A stretch of DNA of 63,170 nt, filler included, from Collodictyon triciliatum (GCA_043381765.1; 5 parts of 5 records of this genome joined end to end with filler, not necessarily neighbours in it); one strand, 5' to 3'. Counted from the first letter of the whole stretch, positions 949 to 25,344 are shown. The notes: a model not told the origin generated them from the sequence alone. Made by a program: numbers and translations.

Positions 949-2835
949 ATGAAGAAAAGAAAACGTCTTGAGTCTGAGAATATAAAGTCTGTAAAACCAC
1001 ATTATCGAAATGTGAAAACATCTCTAAAGTCGATTGTAAAGAATGCGGATGATTATTGCAAAATCGATGATACGGTTTTATTGTGTCATAACTTGGTTAC
1101 CGACACTTATCTGTTTGCAAGATGTTACATGTTGAAATCATGACAACTTCCCAACAATCGATGAAATGTTTTTTTTTTTTTTTTTTGTACGCTTTAGAGA
1201 CAGTCGGAGTAGATTCACAAGATAGACCCACAAGATTAAAAACCAGATATGAGATATGGCATGGTGACTTTTTATCTATATGATTTTCGATTCCTTTTGT
1301 CCCGAGAAGAGCGCTTTCCGTTGGTTAGACTGTCTCATGTATCACCGTACTTGGCGAAGCAAATGTTAACAGCTTATCATAATAGCATTAAGGAACATTT
1401 TGTAAAGAGGTTACTGCGCTTTATAAATCAAACAGTTCCTGAAGATGACAATGTTACGGAGCTATCAAAAAGCCAAAGTTACGAAAGTTAAAACAGCCAT
1501 CTTCAAGAAACTCGAAATACTGGAACAATATAAAGAATTAGGCTACAACGCGTTTGCATCATATCATTCCCAGCGATATTGTAAAAGGTATCGAATATGA
1601 CGTCAAAGCCAATCCAAATAAGTACATTCCATATGTGATTTACATGAATCGCATTTTTTAGGACATCGGAACCAAAAACTGTTTCAACCAATCTCTAAAA
1701 GAACTAATTATTTACCATGTCATATTACCCTAGATGCCACATGTTTGATATAGCTATTATAATTAACTGGAAAAACATCATCAATGAAGAATAAATCAGG
1801 ATGAAAAGAGACCCTATGGAATGACTTCTTTGAAATGAAGAAGAGAGTCTTTCATCAAATAGACTACAGTTTTAAATACATGATACAAACAGACAGCTTG
1901 GCGGTGTCATTATTGTTTGAAAAGAAAGGTATTTCAAATTCAAGATTCAAATATAACCAAAAAACCCCCAATAATATGTTTATATAGATGAACTTTCCGA
2001 AGAACAGTTATCCTGATTAGAGACAAAAAAAATATAGCTGGAGTGAATGCAGGCAAGTTTAATTTGGTTTACACGGTAGATGAGAAAGGTAAGAAATTAC
2101 TTTACTCGGCACAAAGAAGACATGGCAGCAAATCTCCTAAAAATCACAAAATACTCTTGCGAAAAAAAAAGAAGAAAAGTACAATTATTCAGCGATATAC
2201 ATGGCAACAGGTTTACAATGTGCTATTTCTTTTGGTGCCATGACTTTTGAAGAGAATGAGTAGCTTGAGATATCAAGAGTATCTTTTATCGATTTAGAGA
2301 CAGAACTGAGTAAGCATAATTCATGCACTGTCGATTATGAAAAAATTTCGAGAGTATTATCCATGACATCAAGATTCCAGATAGAACTACCCAGATTTTA
2401 TAAACAAGTAACTTTTCGAAAGATGGGATAGAGACACTATGTTAATACAAAAAGTGAAGAATTGTTTATGAACCGAATCGAAAAGACATTTGGCAAGGAT
2501 GTTGTACTGGTGAATGGAGACTGGAGCAGAAAATGTCTGATGAAACATTTAATTGCAACAATTGGAAGAGGATTACGAAAAATACTATCCAAACGCTTTG
2601 AAACAGTTAGTGTGGATTAATTCAGAACCTCCAAGATGAGTTGTAACTGCGAAAAAGAATAGGAATATATGACACCGAAAGGAAATTCAAAAAAAGTATA
2701 TAGATGTCTCATATGTAAAGAATGCAATCGGCCAGAAGGCAAACAAAGTGCATTCTTGACAACGGACTTTAACAGCTCTAATAACACTCAAGAAAGGTCT
2801 TTTAATCCTTCAAAATATTCATACACCTTTCTCTA
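949..2835 (+). pseudogene. Fanzor1 (TnpB-like RuvC RNA-guided endonuclease), copy 1, with many stops and frameshifts; ~620 codons
   Basis: Broken ORFs read MKKRKR..YRNVKTSLKSIVKN, MIQTDSLAVSLLF, GVNAGKFNLVY (RuvC-I), NGDWSRKCLMKH, VD*FRTSKMSCNC (Glu codon is TAA at 2618-2620), CLICKEC, LTTDFNSSNN (RuvC-III). Confidence 0.88.
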
Positions 2836-2841
2836 AAAAAT

Positions 2842-2964
2842 AGGCTGTCGGGTCTTTCCCCTGGTAGCCTTTACCACTACTCGACCTCTTTGTGAAAAAA
2901 GTGGTGAGACCTTGGAAACTAGCGGACGAAGTTTACCAGTCGAAAGATGGTATATCTCTTCTAG
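2842..2964 (+). ncRNA. Putative Fanzor omegaRNA scaffold, copy 1
   Basis: Conserved in three copies. Hairpins aggctgtcggg/cctggtagcct, ttaccact/agtggtga and taccagtc-GAAA-gatggta, plus closing actag/ctagt. The 5' boundary is uncertain. Confidence 0.7.
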
Positions 2965-3122
2965 TAAAGAAAAAAAGAGCAAATCTTCTCCTAAAAGCTC
3001 TAACCAATCGACGCCAATCAATATAGTCATACCTTATCCTATAACCCAACAAAGAAGGGGAACAAAAGAGAGAACTGGGAATTATGGGCACGATCATCAA
3101 GTTACGAGCGGCCACAAAACTG

Positions 3123-3164
3123 ACAGATCACACAGATCACACAGATCACACAGATCACACAGAT
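3123..3164. repeat. Tandem 10-mer (ACAGATCACA) x4
   Basis: Direct observation. Confidence 0.9.
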
Positions 3165-3632
3165 AAGAGTAGTGACGGATAAGCTGTCCGCAGGAGCAAA
3201 CCAGACGCACAAATGAGCAGCTATTCCAAGTCGCGCTCGCTCTTCCACCAACTCGCCCCGGCAGCAATCCTGGAGGACGATCACGAAGCAGATCCATCAA
3301 ACAACTCAAACGAAGCTGGTCCAAAGGCCAGATCGGAGCTTGACTTGGAGCCGAAAAGCCAGACTGTGCGGGGCAGAACGGAAACAACGACGCTGCCGCA
3401 GGGCATTCAGTCCCGTTTTTTTGCTCTGCGCGACTCTTTTCGGGCCCGTCGCATCTCTGACGGCTCCCGAACAAATCGCACTCGCTCGGCCTTGTTGCAG
3501 GAGCCTTTTTCCTCGGATCCTGCAAGTCTGTGCCCAAGCCTCTGGAACAAAGACGCCTTCTCCCCTTTGTCCGAAGAAACAAGTTTGTTTAGATTCTTTT
3601 GCTCACATGTCAAATATATAATTTTATCGATA

Positions 3633-5120
3633 ATGAAGAAAAGAAAAANNNNNNNNNNNNNNNNNNNNNNNNNNNNNNNNNNNNNNNNNNNNNNNNNNNN
3701 NNNNNNNNNNNNNNNNNNNNNNNNNNNNNNNNNNNNNNNNNNNNNNNNNNNNNNNNNNNNNNNNNNNNNNNNNNNNNNNNNNNNNAAAAAGACATCTTCA
3801 AGAAACTCGACATACCGAACAATATAAAGAATGGGCTATAACGCATTTGAATCGTATGATTCCCAGCGATATTGTAAATGATATCGAATATGACGTCAAG
3901 GTCAATCCAAACAAGTACATACCATGTCTGATTTACACGAATCGCATTTTTGAGGACATTGGAGCCAAACTGTTTCAACCAATCTCTATAAGAACTAACA
4001 ATATACCATGTCATATTACTCCAGATACTGCATGTTTGATAGATCTATTAGTATTATCTGGAAAAACATTGTTAATGAAGAATATATCAGGGTGCAAAGA
4101 GGCCCTATGGGATAATTTCTTTGAAATGAAGAGGGTCATTCATCATAGAGACTACAATTTTAAATACATGATACAAACAGACGGCTTGGCGGTTTCATTA
4201 CTATTTGAAAAGAAAGGTATTTCAAATTAAATATACAATTTAATTAAAGACCCAAGAATATGTCTATATTGATGAACTTTCCGAAGAGCGATTATCTTTA
4301 TTAGCGAAAAAAAAAATAGTTGGAGTGGACGCTGGCAAGCTTAATTTGGTTTACATGGTGTGTGAGACAGGTAAGAAATTACGTTACACGGCACATCAAA
4401 GAAGACATGATAGCAAATCTCTTAAAAATCACAAAATACTCTTGCGCGAGAAAAAGAAAGTACAATTATTCAGGGATATGCATGTCAACAGGTTTACAAA
4501 GTGCTGTTTCTTTTGGTCACAGGACTTAAGAAGAAAATCAGCAGTTTGAGACATCAAGAGCATCTTTAATCGATTTGGAGACAGAACTGAGTAAACATAA
4601 TTCATGCACTGTCGATTATGAAAAATTTCGAAAATATGTATCTATGAAATCAAGATACCAGATAGAATTATCCAGATTTTATGAAGAAACTTTTCGAAAG
4701 ATGATAAGGAGATAACATGTTAATACAAAAAGAACCGAACTATTGTTTATGGACTTAATCGAAAAGACACTTGGCAAGGATGTTGTACTGGTCTATGGAG
4801 ACTGGAGCAGAAATTCTCAGATGAAACATTTTATGCCAACAATCGGAAGAGTATTACGAAAAATACTATCCAAATGTCATGATACCATTAGTGTAAATGG
4901 ATTTAGAACCTCCAAGATGTGCTGCAACTGCGAAAAAGAACTGGAATATATGAAACTGAAAGGAAACTCAAAAAAAAAAGTGTATAGATGTCTCATATGT
5001 AAAGAATGCAATCGCTCAGAAAGCAACTAAAGTGTATTCTTGACAAAGGACTCTATCAGCGCTAATAATATGATCAACAAAGTTCTTTTAATCCTTCAAA
5101 ATATGCAAACACCTTTAAAA
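3633..5120 (+). pseudogene. Fanzor1 copy 2, with a gap in the 5' part and stops/frameshifts
   Basis: MIQTDGLAVSLLF, GVDAGKLNLVY, YGDWSRNSQMKHFMPTIG, VNGFRTSKMCCNC..CLICKEC, LTKDSISANN; colinear with copy 1 from ~3786. The 5' start is uncertain because of the N gap. Confidence 0.88.
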
Positions 5121-5123
5121 AAC

Positions 5124-5244
5124 AGGCTGTCAGGTCAGTCCTGGCGGCCTTCACCACTACACGACCTTTGTGAAAAAAAGTGGTGAGACTTAGGATACTA
5201 GCGCACCAAGTTTACCAATCGAGAGATTGGTATGCCCCTTCTAG
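5124..5244 (+). ncRNA. Putative Fanzor omegaRNA scaffold, copy 2
   Basis: aggctgtcagg/cctggcggcct; tcaccact/agtggtga; perfect taccaatc-GAGA-gattggta; tactag/ctagta. Confidence 0.7.
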
Positions 5245-5612
5245 TAAAATATGTGTTCTTGGACAGACAAGGTACAATAGTTATTTTGCACTATGCTGCT
5301 GTGCAATGTGCCCACCCTTCAATATCACTACATCCATCGAAATATATGATATTCGGTTCATTAGTTGAAACAGTACATGTTCACACTGTATACTTGACTC
5401 ACGTCTGTCATTTGACATGTGGGCTATAATACCCCATTGAATTATTGAGAAACTAAAAGTTTGATTGATTAACCATCTTCATCCCAAATCGGTGGCAGAA
5501 TATGCCATGAACAAGTATATTCGATGGTATTTTTATATAAGTAATAATGATATAATTATCCCTGTCGCCGCCTACATAACGAAAAAAATACGATGTTGTC
5601 CACATAAGCAGC

Positions 5613-8842: not shown

Positions 8843-10081
8843 TCAAGAAAACAAGGGCAGGAAGGATTCCTCGTTATGTGTCCTGCGAATCGCCTCAGCC
8901 AGAAGCCGGGCCACGTTGCAGACAACAATCTTTTGCGATGCAGCAGCAGCGTTTTCGGACGAGATGGCCACCGTATTTGTCACAAAGACACGCTCGATTT
9001 CAATCCTGTTGATAATCTCCAGCGCGCCGGCAGAAAGCAACGGGTGAGTAGCACAGCCGACAAAGCGAGTCGCACCTGCTTTCTTGAGCGCCGCAACCGA
9101 TCTTTGGAAAGTGTGGCCAGTGTCGATGATATCATCCACAATAATCGCCTCCTTCCCATGCACATCTCCAATCACCGCGCCCGGGTCGTCCTCCGCAGAA
9201 GCCGCACTCTCCTCTGCCTTGGGCATGATGCGAAGCGCCGAGGGCGAGAGGGGATTGCCATACGCGCTCTTGGCCGAGTGCTGCGTCCCTGGAGTGATGT
9301 TCATATCGCTGGATCGGTTGTCGATGATGGCGAGCGATGCGTTCAGGCGACGAGCCACGTCTCGGGCCCGCTCAACGCTCCCTGAGTCTGGCGCCACAAC
9401 CACCAGGCGGTCTGGGCTAGCCAAGGCCGGCTGCAGCCGCTTGAGCTGGTCCACAAGCACCCCGGAGGCCATCAAATGGTCCACGGGGAGGTCAAAGAAG
9501 CCCTGGATTTGCCCCGCGTGCAGATCGATAGTCAGGAGGCGGTCAATGCCGGCCACCTGGTAGAGGTCCGCCACGAGCTTCGCAGAGATCGGGACGCGAG
9601 GGGCGGTCTTGCGGTCCTGCCGGGCATATCCGTAGTACGGGACAACGGCCGTGATTCTGCGTGCAGAGGCTCGCTTGATGGCGTCGATCAGAAGGAGAAG
9701 CTCCATCAGGTGGTCGTTGACGGGTGGGGATGTGGATTGAATCACAAAGACGTCTGCGCCTCGGATGTTTTCGTGGATGTGGACGCCAAGCTCCCCGTCA
9801 GGATGGCGAATAAGCTCCAGTTTCCCCAGAGGAACTCCCAGGCGCTGGCAGACCTCCTTGGCCACGGTAATGCTCGCATTTCCGGCAAAGATCTGAAACG
9901 GCACTTTACTTTAATATGAAAAACAGCGTTCGGTAGGGCGGTTTTGGCTGACTTGGTTTTGTTCTGCTGTTTCTTCTTCCTTTTTGGAGGGCCAAAGAAT
10001 GTGTGGAATAACAAAACAAAATAAAGTGCAAACATGATAGTCTGTTGAGTGTGTTTGAGGTACCTTGATTTCGTAGCCCAT
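8843..10081 (-). CDS. prs: Ribose-phosphate pyrophosphokinase (PRPP synthetase) family protein, 2 exons (10081-10064, 9892-8843), 355 aa
   Basis: Splicing GT(10063)..CAG(9893) gives MGYEIK|IFAGNAS; motifs ENIRGADVF, VPYYGYARQDRK, DLHAGQIQGFFD, IIVDDIIDTG, ATHPLLS. Confidence 0.93.
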
Positions 10082-12591: not shown

Positions 12592-12691
12592 NNNNNNNNN
12601 NNNNNNNNNNNNNNNNNNNNNNNNNNNNNNNNNNNTTAATTAATTAANNNNNNNNNNNNNNNNNNNNNNNNNNNNNNNNNNNNNNNNNNNN
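12592..12691. other. Artificial scaffold linker N44-TTAATTAATTAA-N44
   Basis: Identical 100-bp spacer with stops in all six frames; occurs four times. Confidence 0.97.
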
Positions 12692-25244: not shown

Positions 25245-25344
25245 NNNNNNNNNNNNNNNNNNNNNNNNNNNNNNNNNNNNNNNNNNNNTTAATTAATTAA
25301 NNNNNNNNNNNNNNNNNNNNNNNNNNNNNNNNNNNNNNNNNNNN
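25245..25344. other. Artificial scaffold linker
   Basis: N44-TTAATTAATTAA-N44. Confidence 0.97.

What the first reader, a model, noticed from the sequence alone, without database searches (positions are those of the whole stretch)
949..5246. Multi-copy Fanzor1 (eukaryotic OMEGA nuclease) family in a protist genome
Seen: three colinear ~1.9-kb copies, two in tandem here and a third at 56105-57885 on another scaffold. They carry TDG..VS.LF, GVDAG (RuvC-I), GDWS, (D/N)(E)FRTSK-CxxC..CxxC and RD..S.NN motifs, plus an N-terminal basic NLS-like MKKRKR. Known: this motif order and ~620-aa size match Fanzor1. Inference: three copies in 63 kb of unlinked scaffolds imply a high-copy family. The mutations differ between copies, so a consensus protein could be rebuilt. 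No transposase ORF is visible.
Basis: partly seen in the sequence, partly recalled or inferred. Interest (0 to 1): 0.85.

Follow-up and report, generated by a model that had tools for sequence, protein, structure and literature searches.

The report
Three decayed Fanzor1 nuclease gene copies
The window holds three broken, neutrally decaying copies of a roughly 2-kb mobile unit that once encoded a Fanzor1 RNA-guided DNA nuclease; this is a real but ordinary fossil of a known family, not a working enzyme.

Summary
Three colinear copies exist at 949-2964 (+), 3633-5244 (+, with a 137-N gap) and 56107-57893 (-). They are 84-87% identical.

They are Fanzor1.
- A read-through of copy 2 hits 1224 proteins, best E 1.1e-45.
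- The best full-length hit, P0003 (634 aa), matches SpuFz1 almost end to end at E 9e-37.
- A model of the window's own C-terminal part finds Fanzor1 structures at ranks 1-7.

All three copies are dead.
- They carry 2-8 in-frame stops of all three kinds and 4-10 frameshifting indels each.
- Substitutions fall evenly on codon positions, 94:87:87, and the synonymous, non-synonymous and stop shares match chance.
- The essential alternative RuvC-II glutamate codon is TAA in one copy and GGA in two.

The window holds no transposase and no inverted-repeat partner. The closest intact relatives sit in 3.3-kb inverted-repeat elements with a DDE_3 transposase, on contigs labelled as giant-virus genomes.

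The 3' ends fold well and end in a hairpin followed by CTAG|T, which resembles a Helitron terminus. This is a lead only.

Verdict: a new member of a known kind, of low interest.

The parts
949..2964 (+). Copy 1: the only copy with both ends, about 2.02 kb. It runs from the ATG (MKKRKR...) to the terminal CTAG.
   Evidence: tblastn with P0003 covers residues 2-594 in five pieces in three frames. 8 in-frame stops and 10 frameshifting indels against the majority consensus.
3633..3648 (+). Copy 2, first 16 bases (ATG, MKKRK), cut off by the assembly gap.
   Evidence: The 15-base word occurs only at 949 and 3633; 0.16 expected by chance. The sequence upstream is unrelated to that upstream of copy 1.
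3649..3785 (.). Run of 137 N inside copy 2. It hides the part that matches about residues 6-190 of P0003.
3786..5244 (+). Copy 2, body and 3' end.
   Evidence: tblastn with P0003 covers residues 197-602. 2 in-frame TAA stops and 4 frameshifting indels. Read depth stops at 5243/5244.
56107..57893 (-). Copy 3, lacking its 5' end. Its broken end abuts an unrelated repeat.
   Evidence: tblastn with P0003 covers residues 93-610. 4 in-frame stops and 5 frameshifting indels. Junction with repeat 57877-59103.
2046..2048 (+). RuvC-I aspartate codon. It is AAT (Asn) in copy 1; copies 2 (4328-4330) and 3 (57029-57031, minus strand) keep GAC.
   Evidence: This column is invariant D372 in the 20-member family alignment A2.
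2516..2527 (+). GDWS, the canonical RuvC-II position where Gly replaces Glu. Also at 4797-4808 and 56546-56557 (minus strand).
   Evidence: G496 is invariant in A2. The rearranged site is described in PMC10530073 (passages).
2618..2620 (+). Alternative RuvC-II glutamate codon, TAA in copy 1.
   Evidence: E530 is invariant in A2.
4899..4901 (+). Alternative RuvC-II glutamate codon, GGA (Gly) in copy 2.
56453..56455 (-). Alternative RuvC-II glutamate codon, GGA (Gly) in copy 3.
2765..2767 (+). RuvC-III aspartate codon GAC, kept in copy 1. Also kept at 5049-5051 and 56304-56306 (minus strand).
   Evidence: D581 is invariant in A2.
2842..2964 (+). Structured 3' tail of copy 1. It has an 11-bp hairpin, a second stem, and a terminal stem that encloses a hairpin with a GAAA loop, then ...CTTCTAG.
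   Evidence: MFE -38.9 kcal/mol, z -2.41, 3 of 200 shuffles fold as well.
5124..5244 (+). Structured 3' tail of copy 2, same layout.
   Evidence: MFE -47.6 kcal/mol, z -4.51, 0 of 200 shuffles. Internal control stretches give z +0.72 and -0.62.
56107..56227 (-). Structured 3' tail of copy 3, same layout. Its terminal CTAG is mutated to CTAT.
   Evidence: MFE -41.9 kcal/mol, z -2.63, 2 of 200 shuffles. Sequence.
4460..4560 (+). About 102 extra bases (34 codons) shared by all three copies and absent from intact relatives. Either a small intron or a coding insertion; not resolved. Coordinates are approximate and given for copy 2.
   Evidence: The spacing between two anchors is 68 residues in copy 3. 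In 139 relatives it is 34 in 112, with a range of 32-55. The downstream frame of the majority consensus has no stop over 39 codons here.

Best explanation
These are three old, dead copies of one repeat family. Its unit is a roughly 2.0-kb mobile element that carries a single Fanzor1 gene of about 630-660 codons and a structured tail of about 120 bases running to the element's 3' end.

By homology, the ancestral protein was an omega-RNA-guided DNA endonuclease of the TnpB/Cas12 lineage. It had the Fanzor-type rearranged RuvC site: an Asp in RuvC-I, a Gly at the canonical RuvC-II position (GDWS), an alternative Glu about 34 residues further on, just before a four-cysteine zinc ribbon, and an Asp in RuvC-III. 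Its guide RNA would have been transcribed from the 3' end of the element, reading into the flank.

After insertion the copies drifted about 6-8% each from their common ancestor without selection. None can now make the protein, and none keeps the full catalytic triad.

Shown: homology, copy structure, damage, neutral decay, the 3' boundary, and the absence of a transposase in the window. Inferred: the ancestral activity, the omega-RNA role of the tail, and how the unit moved.
For: - Copies. Private differences number 119, 80 and 95 over 1436 ungapped columns, a star-like pattern.
- Family, by sequence: the copy 2 read-through P0001 finds 1224 proteins at E<=1e-3, 340 at <=1e-10 and 12 at <=1e-30. 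Typical hits are 600-700 aa and match in their C-terminal third.
- Colinearity: P0003 aligns colinearly to all three copies.
- Solved structures with P0003: SpuFz1 8gkh E 9.2e-37 over residues 14-607, PpFz1 7.2e-34, GtFz1 7e-16, nothing else at E<=1.
- Solved structures with the profile of 20 relatives: PpFz1 1.6e-93, SpuFz1 7.4e-90, GtFz1 2.3e-72; the next hit is at 1.2e-3.
- Solved structures with P0001 itself: PpFz1 1.6e-7.
- Fold: the AlphaFold model of P0001 has mean pLDDT 85.7. Foldseek ranks 1-7 are Fanzor1 structures (E 9e-7 to 1e-3), followed by Cas12f and TnpB; ApmFz2 is at rank 22.
- Pfam: Cas12f1-like_TNB is found in 18 of 20 relatives.
- Catalytic columns D372, G496, E530 and D581 are invariant in A2; their state in the window is.
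- Damage.
- Neutral decay: substitutions by codon position 94:87:87 (p 0.83). Shares of synonymous, non-synonymous and stop changes are 0.24/0.71/0.05, against 0.20/0.74/0.06 expected from random single changes (p 0.29).
- Ancestral glutamate: the codon reads TAA and GGA in the window and AAA in one loose-end consensus of run X3. GAA is the only codon one step from all three (my inference).
- 3' tail: z -2.41, -4.51 and -2.63, against +0.72 and -0.62 for internal controls.
- 3' boundary: depth falls to zero from 5244 on in all four runs laid.
Against: - On their own, the window's fragments stay below Pfam's cut-off for Cas12f1-like_TNB: 11-16 bits against a cut-off of 26.3.
- No RNA evidence exists for an omega RNA.
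- The three copies give no compensatory change: 0 of 42 predicted pairs.
- A covariance model built from the 3' ends of 52 relatives finds no significant match at the copies' tails. Its best match there is E 7.1, at copy 3, among 27 noise-level matches.
- Rfam has no match in the window.
- The damage counts rest on a majority consensus of only three copies. Some 'frameshifts' may be alignment ambiguities in A-runs, or the edges of an intron.
- The 5' boundary rests on two copies, one of them cut off after 16 bases.
Confidence: 0.88

Rival explanations
1. The unit is a non-autonomous rolling-circle (Helitron1-type) element that captured a Fanzor1 gene. It would be moved in trans by a RepHel protein encoded elsewhere. 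This concerns how the unit moved and is compatible with the best explanation.
For: - The 3' end reads: a 6-8-bp hairpin, then 12-14 bases, then CTAG, then T. This holds in copies 1 and 2 and in two loose-end consensus sequences from other runs. Copy 3 has CTAT then T.
- No inverted partner of the terminus exists in the window, and no transposase.
- A TC lies 4-6 bases before the ATG in both copies that have a 5' end.
- Helitron1 ends are defined as 5'-TC and CTRR-3' with one subterminal 3' hairpin, and Fanzor1 capture by Helitrons is described (PMC3627910, passages read).
Against: - Only five termini were seen.
- The A-rich flanks leave the exact end uncertain by up to four bases.
- The base before the candidate TC is A in copy 2 but T in copy 1.
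- The two TC dinucleotides could be chance (roughly 0.08 by my estimate).
- No RepHel could be sought, since no genome is held.
- No other element in the window shares this 3' end.
Confidence: 0.4
2. The unit is a solo Fanzor1 element with terminal inverted repeats, like SPu-1 of Spizellomyces or a transposase-deleted Mariner/Sola derivative. Its left repeat has decayed or lies in sequence not seen here.
For: - The closest intact relatives lie in 3.3-kb elements bounded by 32-36-bp inverted repeats and carry a divergent DDE_3 plus HTH transposase. 15 of 80 metagenome loci hold that transposase.
- A roughly 2.1-kb element with a single 633-aa Fanzor1 ORF and 33-bp inverted repeats is the prototype in PMC3627910 (passage).
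Against: - Allowing 3 mismatches, an 18-base word from the 3' terminus occurs only at the 3' ends of copies 1 and 2, on the strand expected there, and at no inverted partner site. No convincing inverted pair brackets copy 1.
- Homology between copies 1 and 2 ends at or within a few bases of the ATG.
- tblastn with two relatives' transposases gives nothing better than E 0.67.
Confidence: 0.3
3. The copies are remnants of an integrated giant-virus genome rather than of a host transposon family.
For: 436 stretches on viral contigs encode relatives. Many of the contig names printed for the 80 loci kept carry the label GVMAG, among them the 254-kb contig that holds the 88%-identical relative of P0003. 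Neighbouring genes there include DUF5755, the small chain of ribonucleotide reductase, and XPG.
Against: - The flanks in the window hold no viral hallmark seen in the ten ORFs scanned.
- The scaffolds carry eukaryotic gene fragments.
- The copies share only the 2-kb unit, with unrelated flanks.
- Identity to the viral proteins is only about 48%.
Confidence: 0.05
4. The genes are functional, and the apparent breaks are introns, a variant genetic code or sequencing errors.
For: One shared 102-base extra segment could be an intron. Fanzor genes are known to hold introns (PMC10530073).
Against: - In-frame stops are of all three kinds, TAA, TAG and TGA.
- The breaks differ between copies.
- Substitutions show no codon-position bias.
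- The catalytic Glu is lost in 3 of 3 copies and the RuvC-I Asp in 1 of 3.
- A 355-codon PRPP synthetase ORF on the same scaffold is open under the standard code.
Confidence: 0.02

Closest known systems
Fanzor1 of Spizellomyces punctatus (SpuFz1, PDB 8gkh) and its SPu-1 element
   Same: - The protein has the same length class and the same domain order. P0003, the nearest intact relative of the window's copies, aligns to SpuFz1 over residues 14-607 at E 9e-37.
- The model of the window's C-terminal part superposes on SpuFz1 with TM 0.60 normalised to the query.
- The element is about 2 kb with a single ORF (PMC3627910, passage).
   Different: - The window's copies are pseudogenes.
- No terminal inverted repeats were found.
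- The window fragment itself reaches only PpFz1 by sequence, at E 1.6e-7.
[quoted passage not shown]
   Same: - These are the closest intact relatives: 45-56% identity to the copy 2 read-through.
- They share the catalytic columns.
- They have a basic N-terminus.
[quoted passage not shown]
   Different: - The relatives are intact, lack the 34-codon extra segment, and are paired with a DDE_3 transposase inside 32-36-bp inverted repeats.
- The window's copies have none of these features.
- The relatives' 3' RNA model does not match the window.
CRe-1/2/3 Fanzor1 elements of Chlamydomonas (non-autonomous Helitron2)
   Same: - A Fanzor1 gene carried by a rolling-circle element without its own transposase.
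- Many copies, often lacking the 5' end, with 3' ends intact (PMC3627910, passages). Copy 3 here lacks its 5' end and keeps its 3' end.
   Different: - The Helitron2 hallmarks, hairpins at both ends and asymmetric terminal inverted repeats, were not seen here.
- The 3' end here looks like Helitron1 (hairpin plus CTAG).
- Protein similarity to the CRe elements was not tested.
TnpB of ISDra2 and Cas12f
   Same: A RuvC fold with an inserted zinc ribbon; these are more distant Foldseek matches at ranks 8-18.
   Different: The canonical RuvC-II glutamate is replaced by Gly (GDWS) and an alternative Glu lies downstream. The protein is longer, and the setting is eukaryotic or viral.

Membership tests
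Fanzor1 | TnpB-type C-terminal motif D ... [TS][TS]-x-x-[C4 zinc ribbon] ... RD (PMC3627910) on a RuvC fold | tested here: met
   The motif order is present in all three copies. The model of the window's own fragment has pLDDT 85.7, and its best seven fold matches are Fanzor1 structures. Individual residues are mutated in single copies: Asn for Asp in copy 1, and Ser for the first Cys in copy 1.
Fanzor1 | Closer to Fanzor1 than to Fanzor2 or bacterial TnpB | tested here: met
   Only Fanzor1 chains match P0003 at E<=1. With the family profile, the three Fanzor1 chains score 1.6e-93 to 2.3e-72 and the next hit is at 1.2e-3. ApmFz2 is at Foldseek rank 22, E 0.049. No tree was built.
Fanzor1 | Rearranged RuvC-II: the canonical Glu replaced by Gly or Pro, with an alternative Glu tens of residues downstream (PMC10530073) | tested here: met
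   This holds for the family. Gly496 and Glu530 are invariant in 20 relatives, 34 residues apart. GDWS is kept in 3 of 3 window copies.
Fanzor1 | Complete catalytic triad in the present copies | tested here: not met
   The alternative Glu codon is TAA, GGA and GGA; the RuvC-I Asp is Asn in copy 1; the RuvC-III Asp is kept in 3 of 3.
Fanzor1 | Open reading frame for the whole protein | tested here: not met
   2-8 in-frame stops and 4-10 frameshifting indels per copy. Substitutions are neutral.
Fanzor1 | Omega RNA encoded at the 3' end of the element, overlapping or following the ORF end | tested here: inconclusive
   The 3' 120-135 bases fold better than shuffles in 3 of 3 copies. However, 0 of 42 pairs covary, the relatives' model gives no match, Rfam gives none, and no RNA run is on record.
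Fanzor1 | Eukaryotic or eukaryote-virus genome | tested here: met
   ORFs on the window's scaffolds carry SKIP/SNW, WD40 and IRS-type PTB domains and a eukaryote-like PRPP synthetase.
Fanzor1 | N-terminal nuclear localisation signal | not tested
   A basic N-terminus, MKKRKR, is present in copy 1, and its first five residues in copy 2. P0003 also starts with a basic stretch. No predictor was run.
Fanzor1 | RNA-guided, TAM-dependent DNA cleavage | not testable with these tools
   This needs biochemistry, and the present copies could not supply the protein.
Helitron1 (non-autonomous) | 3' end CTRR preceded at about 10-12 bases by a hairpin | tested here: met
   CTAG in copies 1 and 2 and in two loose-end consensus sequences; CTAT in copy 3. 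The hairpin ends 12-14 bases before the terminus.
Helitron1 (non-autonomous) | 5' end TC, inserted between A and T without target duplication | tested here: inconclusive
   A TC lies 4-6 bases before the ATG in copies 1 and 2. The preceding base is T in copy 1 and A in copy 2. The base after the 3' end is T in 5 of 5 termini.
Helitron1 (non-autonomous) | RepHel-encoding partner in the genome | not testable with these tools
   No genome is held.
Mariner/IS630-type element with Fanzor1 (as in the relatives) | Terminal inverted repeats and a DDE_3 transposase | tested here: not met
   No inverted partner of the terminus. The best tblastn match with the two relatives' transposases is E 0.67.

The most novel reading that the evidence does not exclude
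A Fanzor1 lineage survives intact today in Mariner/IS630-like transposons of aquatic giant viruses. A branch of it was captured in a eukaryotic host by a rolling-circle (Helitron1-like) carrier, gained a 34-codon insertion or small intron, amplified to many copies and then died. The same nuclease lineage would thus have served two unrelated transposition machineries, linked by virus-host transfer.
Probability: 0.3. Interest if true: 0.4.

Novelty: new member of a known kind. Interest (0 to 1): 0.25.

Why it matters
It matters little on its own. Fanzor1 is a described family with solved structures and shown activity. Multi-copy and degenerate copies in eukaryotic genomes, and capture by Mariner and Helitron elements, have been in print since 2013 (PMC3627910, PMC10432273, PMC10530073).

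The copies here cannot make a nuclease. Intact relatives at about 48% identity are abundant in public metagenomes, so rebuilding this family would add only one more orthologue to thousands.

Its modest value is as a dated fossil, each copy being 6-8% from the ancestor. It ties a host repeat family to a Fanzor1 clade borne by giant viruses. It may also be an example of the same nuclease lineage travelling on different transposon types.

Tried and rejected
- Whole genome: none is held, so copy number, intact copies and a RepHel or transposase partner could not be sought.
- Pfam on eight single ORF fragments and two read-throughs: only sub-threshold Cas12f1-like_TNB matches.
- tblastn of the read-through against phage records: no match.
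- Sequencing runs: no run holds more than 0.11 of the sampled words, and no RNA holder is listed. Runs X3 and X6 are only guessed to be RNA, so nothing can be said about expression.
- One X3 contig skips 4453-4535 (83 bases, ends AA..AA, side 29) at the place of the extra segment. This is too weak, and not GT..AG, to call a splice.
- Intron or coding insertion: unresolved. The first anchor search caught only 15 proteins and 7 loci; it was redone on a MAFFT alignment of 139 relatives.
- A covariance model from 52 relatives' 3' ends, searched over the whole window with filters off: 27 matches at E 0.19-9.8, none significant and only one (E 7.1) at a copy's tail.
- Rfam at gathering thresholds: 0 matches.
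- Search for an inverted partner of the 3' terminus and for inverted repeats around copies 1 and 2: nothing convincing.
- Search for other elements sharing the 3' hairpin: only copy 2 matched within 3 mismatches.
- Organism: the Atlas look-up of the PRPP synthetase says only 'eukaryote-like'.
- Variant genetic code: considered and rejected, because all three stop codons occur in frame.
- Tandem duplication of copy plus spacer: considered and rejected, because the spacer has no similarity to the sequence upstream of copy 1.
- Supplementary files of the papers were not open. They may hold element consensus sequences that would settle the transposon class.

Full report
**What the window is.** It is not one stretch of genome. 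It is five scaffolds of about 12.6 kb joined by artificial spacers of the form N44-TTAATTAATTAA-N44, and most scaffolds end in microsatellites. Base composition is 29-39% G+C apart from a few richer islands. ORF fragments on the scaffolds carry eukaryotic domains: SKIP/SNW, WD40 with pentapeptide repeats, and an IRS-type PTB domain with a filamin repeat. There is also a complete PRPP synthetase.

**The observation.** Three colinear copies exist.
- blastn of the first 3.6 kb against the window finds two further matches of 1785 and 1492 columns at about 84% identity.
- The repeat finder and a three-way alignment agree.
- Pairwise identities over the shared 1.49 kb are 0.853, 0.843 and 0.870, with 25-39 gapped columns per pair.
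- Private differences are spread evenly: 119, 80 and 95 of 1436 ungapped columns, with only 10 columns where all three differ. The copies therefore radiate from one ancestor, each about 6-8% away.

*Copy limits.*
- Copy 1 is 949-2964.
- Copy 2 begins at 3633 with the same 15 bases as copy 1. That word occurs nowhere else in the window; 0.16 are expected by chance. After 16 bases it is cut by 137 N, and it resumes at 3786-5244.
- Copy 3 is 57893-56107 on the minus strand and lacks its 5' end.
- Copies 1 and 2 are separated by 668 unrelated bases. The sequence upstream of their ATGs is not alike.

**What it is.**
- Taken alone, the window's ORF fragments give only sub-threshold Pfam matches to Cas12f1-like_TNB.
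- I translated 624 bases of copy 2 with X at its two TAA stops (P0001). An exhaustive HMMER search over 1.84 billion representatives found 1224 proteins at E<=1e-3, 340 at <=1e-10 and 12 at <=1e-30. The best was P0003 at E 1.1e-45. Most full-length hits are 600-700 aa and match in their C-terminal third.
- P0003 (634 aa) aligns colinearly to all three copies: residues 2-594, 197-602 and 93-610. This includes the N-terminus, so the ATG at 949 is the true start.
- Against all PDB sequences, P0003 matches only three proteins at E<=1, all Fanzor1: SpuFz1 (9.2e-37, residues 14-607), PpFz1 (7.2e-34) and GtFz1 (7e-16).
- A profile of 20 relatives raises these to 7.4e-90, 1.6e-93 and 2.3e-72, with the next hit at 1.2e-3.
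- The window's own fragment reaches PpFz1 at 1.6e-7.
- An AlphaFold2 model of that fragment, built with 59 relatives as its alignment, has mean pLDDT 85.7. Its best seven Foldseek matches in the PDB are Fanzor1 structures, followed by Cas12f and TnpB. The mimivirus Fanzor2 is at rank 22.

**Catalytic site.**
- In 20 full-length relatives, the invariant columns include Asp372 (DPGK, RuvC-I), Gly496 (GDWS), Glu530 (just before TS and the zinc ribbon) and Asp581 (RD.N, RuvC-III).
- This is the rearranged Fanzor site described in PMC10530073: the canonical RuvC-II glutamate is replaced by Gly or Pro, and an alternative, essential glutamate lies tens of residues downstream (passages read).
- In the window, GDWS is kept in all three copies and the RuvC-III Asp in all three. 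The RuvC-I Asp is Asn in copy 1. The alternative Glu codon is TAA in copy 1 and GGA in copies 2 and 3.
- A loose-end consensus of another family member in run X3 reads AAA at that codon. GAA is the only codon one step from TAA, GGA and AAA, so the ancestor most likely had the glutamate. This last step is my inference.

**State of the copies.**
- Against a majority consensus, copy 1 has 8 in-frame stops and 10 frameshifting indels. Copy 2 has 2 and 4, within the 1.46 kb that is sequenced. Copy 3 has 4 and 5.
- The stops include TAA, TAG and TGA, so a variant genetic code does not explain them.
- Departures from the consensus fall evenly on codon positions, 94:87:87 (chi-square p 0.83).
- The split into synonymous, non-synonymous and stop changes is 0.24/0.71/0.05, against 0.20/0.74/0.06 expected from random single changes (p 0.29).
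- The copies have therefore drifted without selection since they were inserted.
- The consensus of the three has no stop in the parts that align to P0003, but those parts still lie in six blocks in different frames. Three copies are not enough to rebuild the protein.

**A shared extra segment.**
- Between two conserved anchors, copy 3 has 68 residues.
- Among 139 full-length relatives (62 proteins and 77 locus ORFs), 112 have 34 residues there and the range is 32-55.
- The extra 102 bases are present in all three copies.
- The downstream frame of the consensus is open across them (0 stops in 39 codons). They could therefore be a coding insertion as well as a small intron.
- One short contig of a run only guessed to be RNA skips 83 bases here, but not at GT..AG. 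I leave this open.

**Relatives and their setting.**
- A scan of metagenome contigs found 567 stretches encoding relatives, of which 80 were kept. A scan of viral contigs found 436, of which 80 were kept.
- The relatives' ORFs are intact and uninterrupted. The loci have a median G+C of 0.31, and several lie on contigs of 80-290 kb.
- Many of the viral contig names printed by the tool carry the label GVMAG. One of these is the 254-kb contig with the 88%-identical relative of P0003, seen as both L002 and L081.
- In L002 and L021 the Fanzor1 gene sits next to a divergently oriented 338-346-aa protein with HTH and DDE_3 domains. Nearby genes are DUF5755, the small chain of ribonucleotide reductase, and XPG.
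- 15 of the 80 metagenome loci hold that transposase.
- Comparing L001-L004 defines a 3.3-kb element bounded by 32-36-bp inverted repeats.
- Fanzor1 inside Mariner-type elements of algal giant viruses has been in print since 2013 (PMC3627910, passages read).
- In the window there is no trace of such a transposase (best E 0.67) and no inverted partner of the copies' 3' terminus.

**The 3' end.**
- The copies stay alike up to ...CTTCTAG. Depth in all four runs laid falls to zero from 5244 on.
- The last 120-135 bases fold into an 11-bp hairpin, a second stem, and a terminal stem enclosing a 6-8-bp hairpin with a GAAA loop. The z-scores are -2.41, -4.51 and -2.63. Two internal control stretches give +0.72 and -0.62.
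- This is where Fanzor and TnpB elements encode their guide-RNA scaffold (PMC10432273 and PMC10530073, passages).
- The evidence here is fold stability only. 0 of 42 predicted pairs covary among the three copies. Rfam has no match.
- The relatives' 3' ends themselves show good covariation: 7 of 15 predicted pairs have compensated changes. A covariance model built from them nevertheless finds nothing significant at the window's tails.

**How the unit moved.**
- The 3' terminus reads: hairpin, 12-14 bases, CTAG, then T. This holds in copies 1 and 2 and in two loose-end consensus sequences from other runs. Copy 3 has CTAT then T.
- That is the Helitron1 signature: a CTRR 3' end with one subterminal hairpin, inserted before a T (definition quoted from PMC3627910).
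- A TC lies 4-6 bases before the ATG in both copies that have a 5' end. The base before it is A in one and T in the other.
- With five termini and two 5' ends this is a lead, not a result. I rate the Helitron-type carrier at about 0.4, a decayed or unseen inverted-repeat element at about 0.3, and leave the rest open.

**Copy number.** Laying Logan contigs of four runs on copy 2 at 85% likeness or better gave 117, 18, 253 and 240 short contigs over 3817-5243. Likeness ranged from under 90% to over 99%, and up to 21 contigs carried the same alternative letter at one listed position. This fits a family of many diverged copies in the organisms behind runs X3 and X6 and in freshwater metagenomes. 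Contig depth is not a copy number, and none of these runs holds more than 0.11 of the sampled words.

**Verdict.** The finding is real and the family assignment is right. What is there is a set of fossil Fanzor1 copies, not a usable OMEGA nuclease. Everything that defines the family at the sequence and fold level is met. An open frame and a complete catalytic triad are tested and not met. The omega RNA and the transposon class remain open. It is a new member of a known kind. The only mildly novel angles are its kinship with a Fanzor1 clade on contigs labelled as giant-virus genomes, and a possible rolling-circle carrier.

Noticed in passing
window 12592-12691, 25245-25344, 37889-37988, 50530-50629: The window is five scaffolds of about 12.6 kb joined by N44-TTAATTAATTAA-N44 spacers. 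Most scaffold ends are microsatellites, so the assembly breaks at simple repeats.
   Followed up: yes
window 57877-59103 and 33898-35125 (inverted): A second, unrelated repeat of about 1.2 kb, 87-90% identical between scaffolds 5 and 3. It holds an open frame of 221 codons (58406-59071) with no Pfam match. In scaffold 5 it abuts the broken 5' end of Fanzor copy 3.
   Followed up: partly
window 8843-9910 (-): A complete, uninterrupted 355-codon PRPP synthetase ORF. It lies in a 52% G+C island within a scaffold of otherwise 33-38% G+C, and it is eukaryote-like by the Atlas look-up.
   Followed up: partly
window 3097-3632: The spacer between copies 1 and 2 is richer in G+C. It holds a (CAGATCACA)n microsatellite and an open frame running from 3183 into copy 2, with no Pfam match over 3183-3648.
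   Followed up: no
L002:1635-4952; also L001, L003, L004, L021 and others: On contigs labelled as giant-virus genomes, the relatives form a 3.3-kb element. It has 32-36-bp inverted repeats, an HTH plus DDE_3 transposase on one strand and an intact Fanzor1 gene on the other.
   Followed up: partly
alignment A5 (3' ends of 52 relatives, e.g. L008:4795-4906): The relatives' 3' ends hold a conserved ...ATCG-[stem-loop]-CTATTGATTTTACA motif around the stop codon, and the short stem covaries. A long-range stem pairs the TTTTACA motif with the element's terminal ...AAGGTGTA and encloses a variable hairpin. In all, 7 of 15 predicted pairs show compensated changes. This is probably the omega-RNA scaffold of that clade.
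   Followed up: partly
window 1160-1190: A run of about 18 T inside copy 1 lies where relatives encode a hydrophobic stretch. Copy 3's homology to copy 1 starts just after this place.
   Followed up: no
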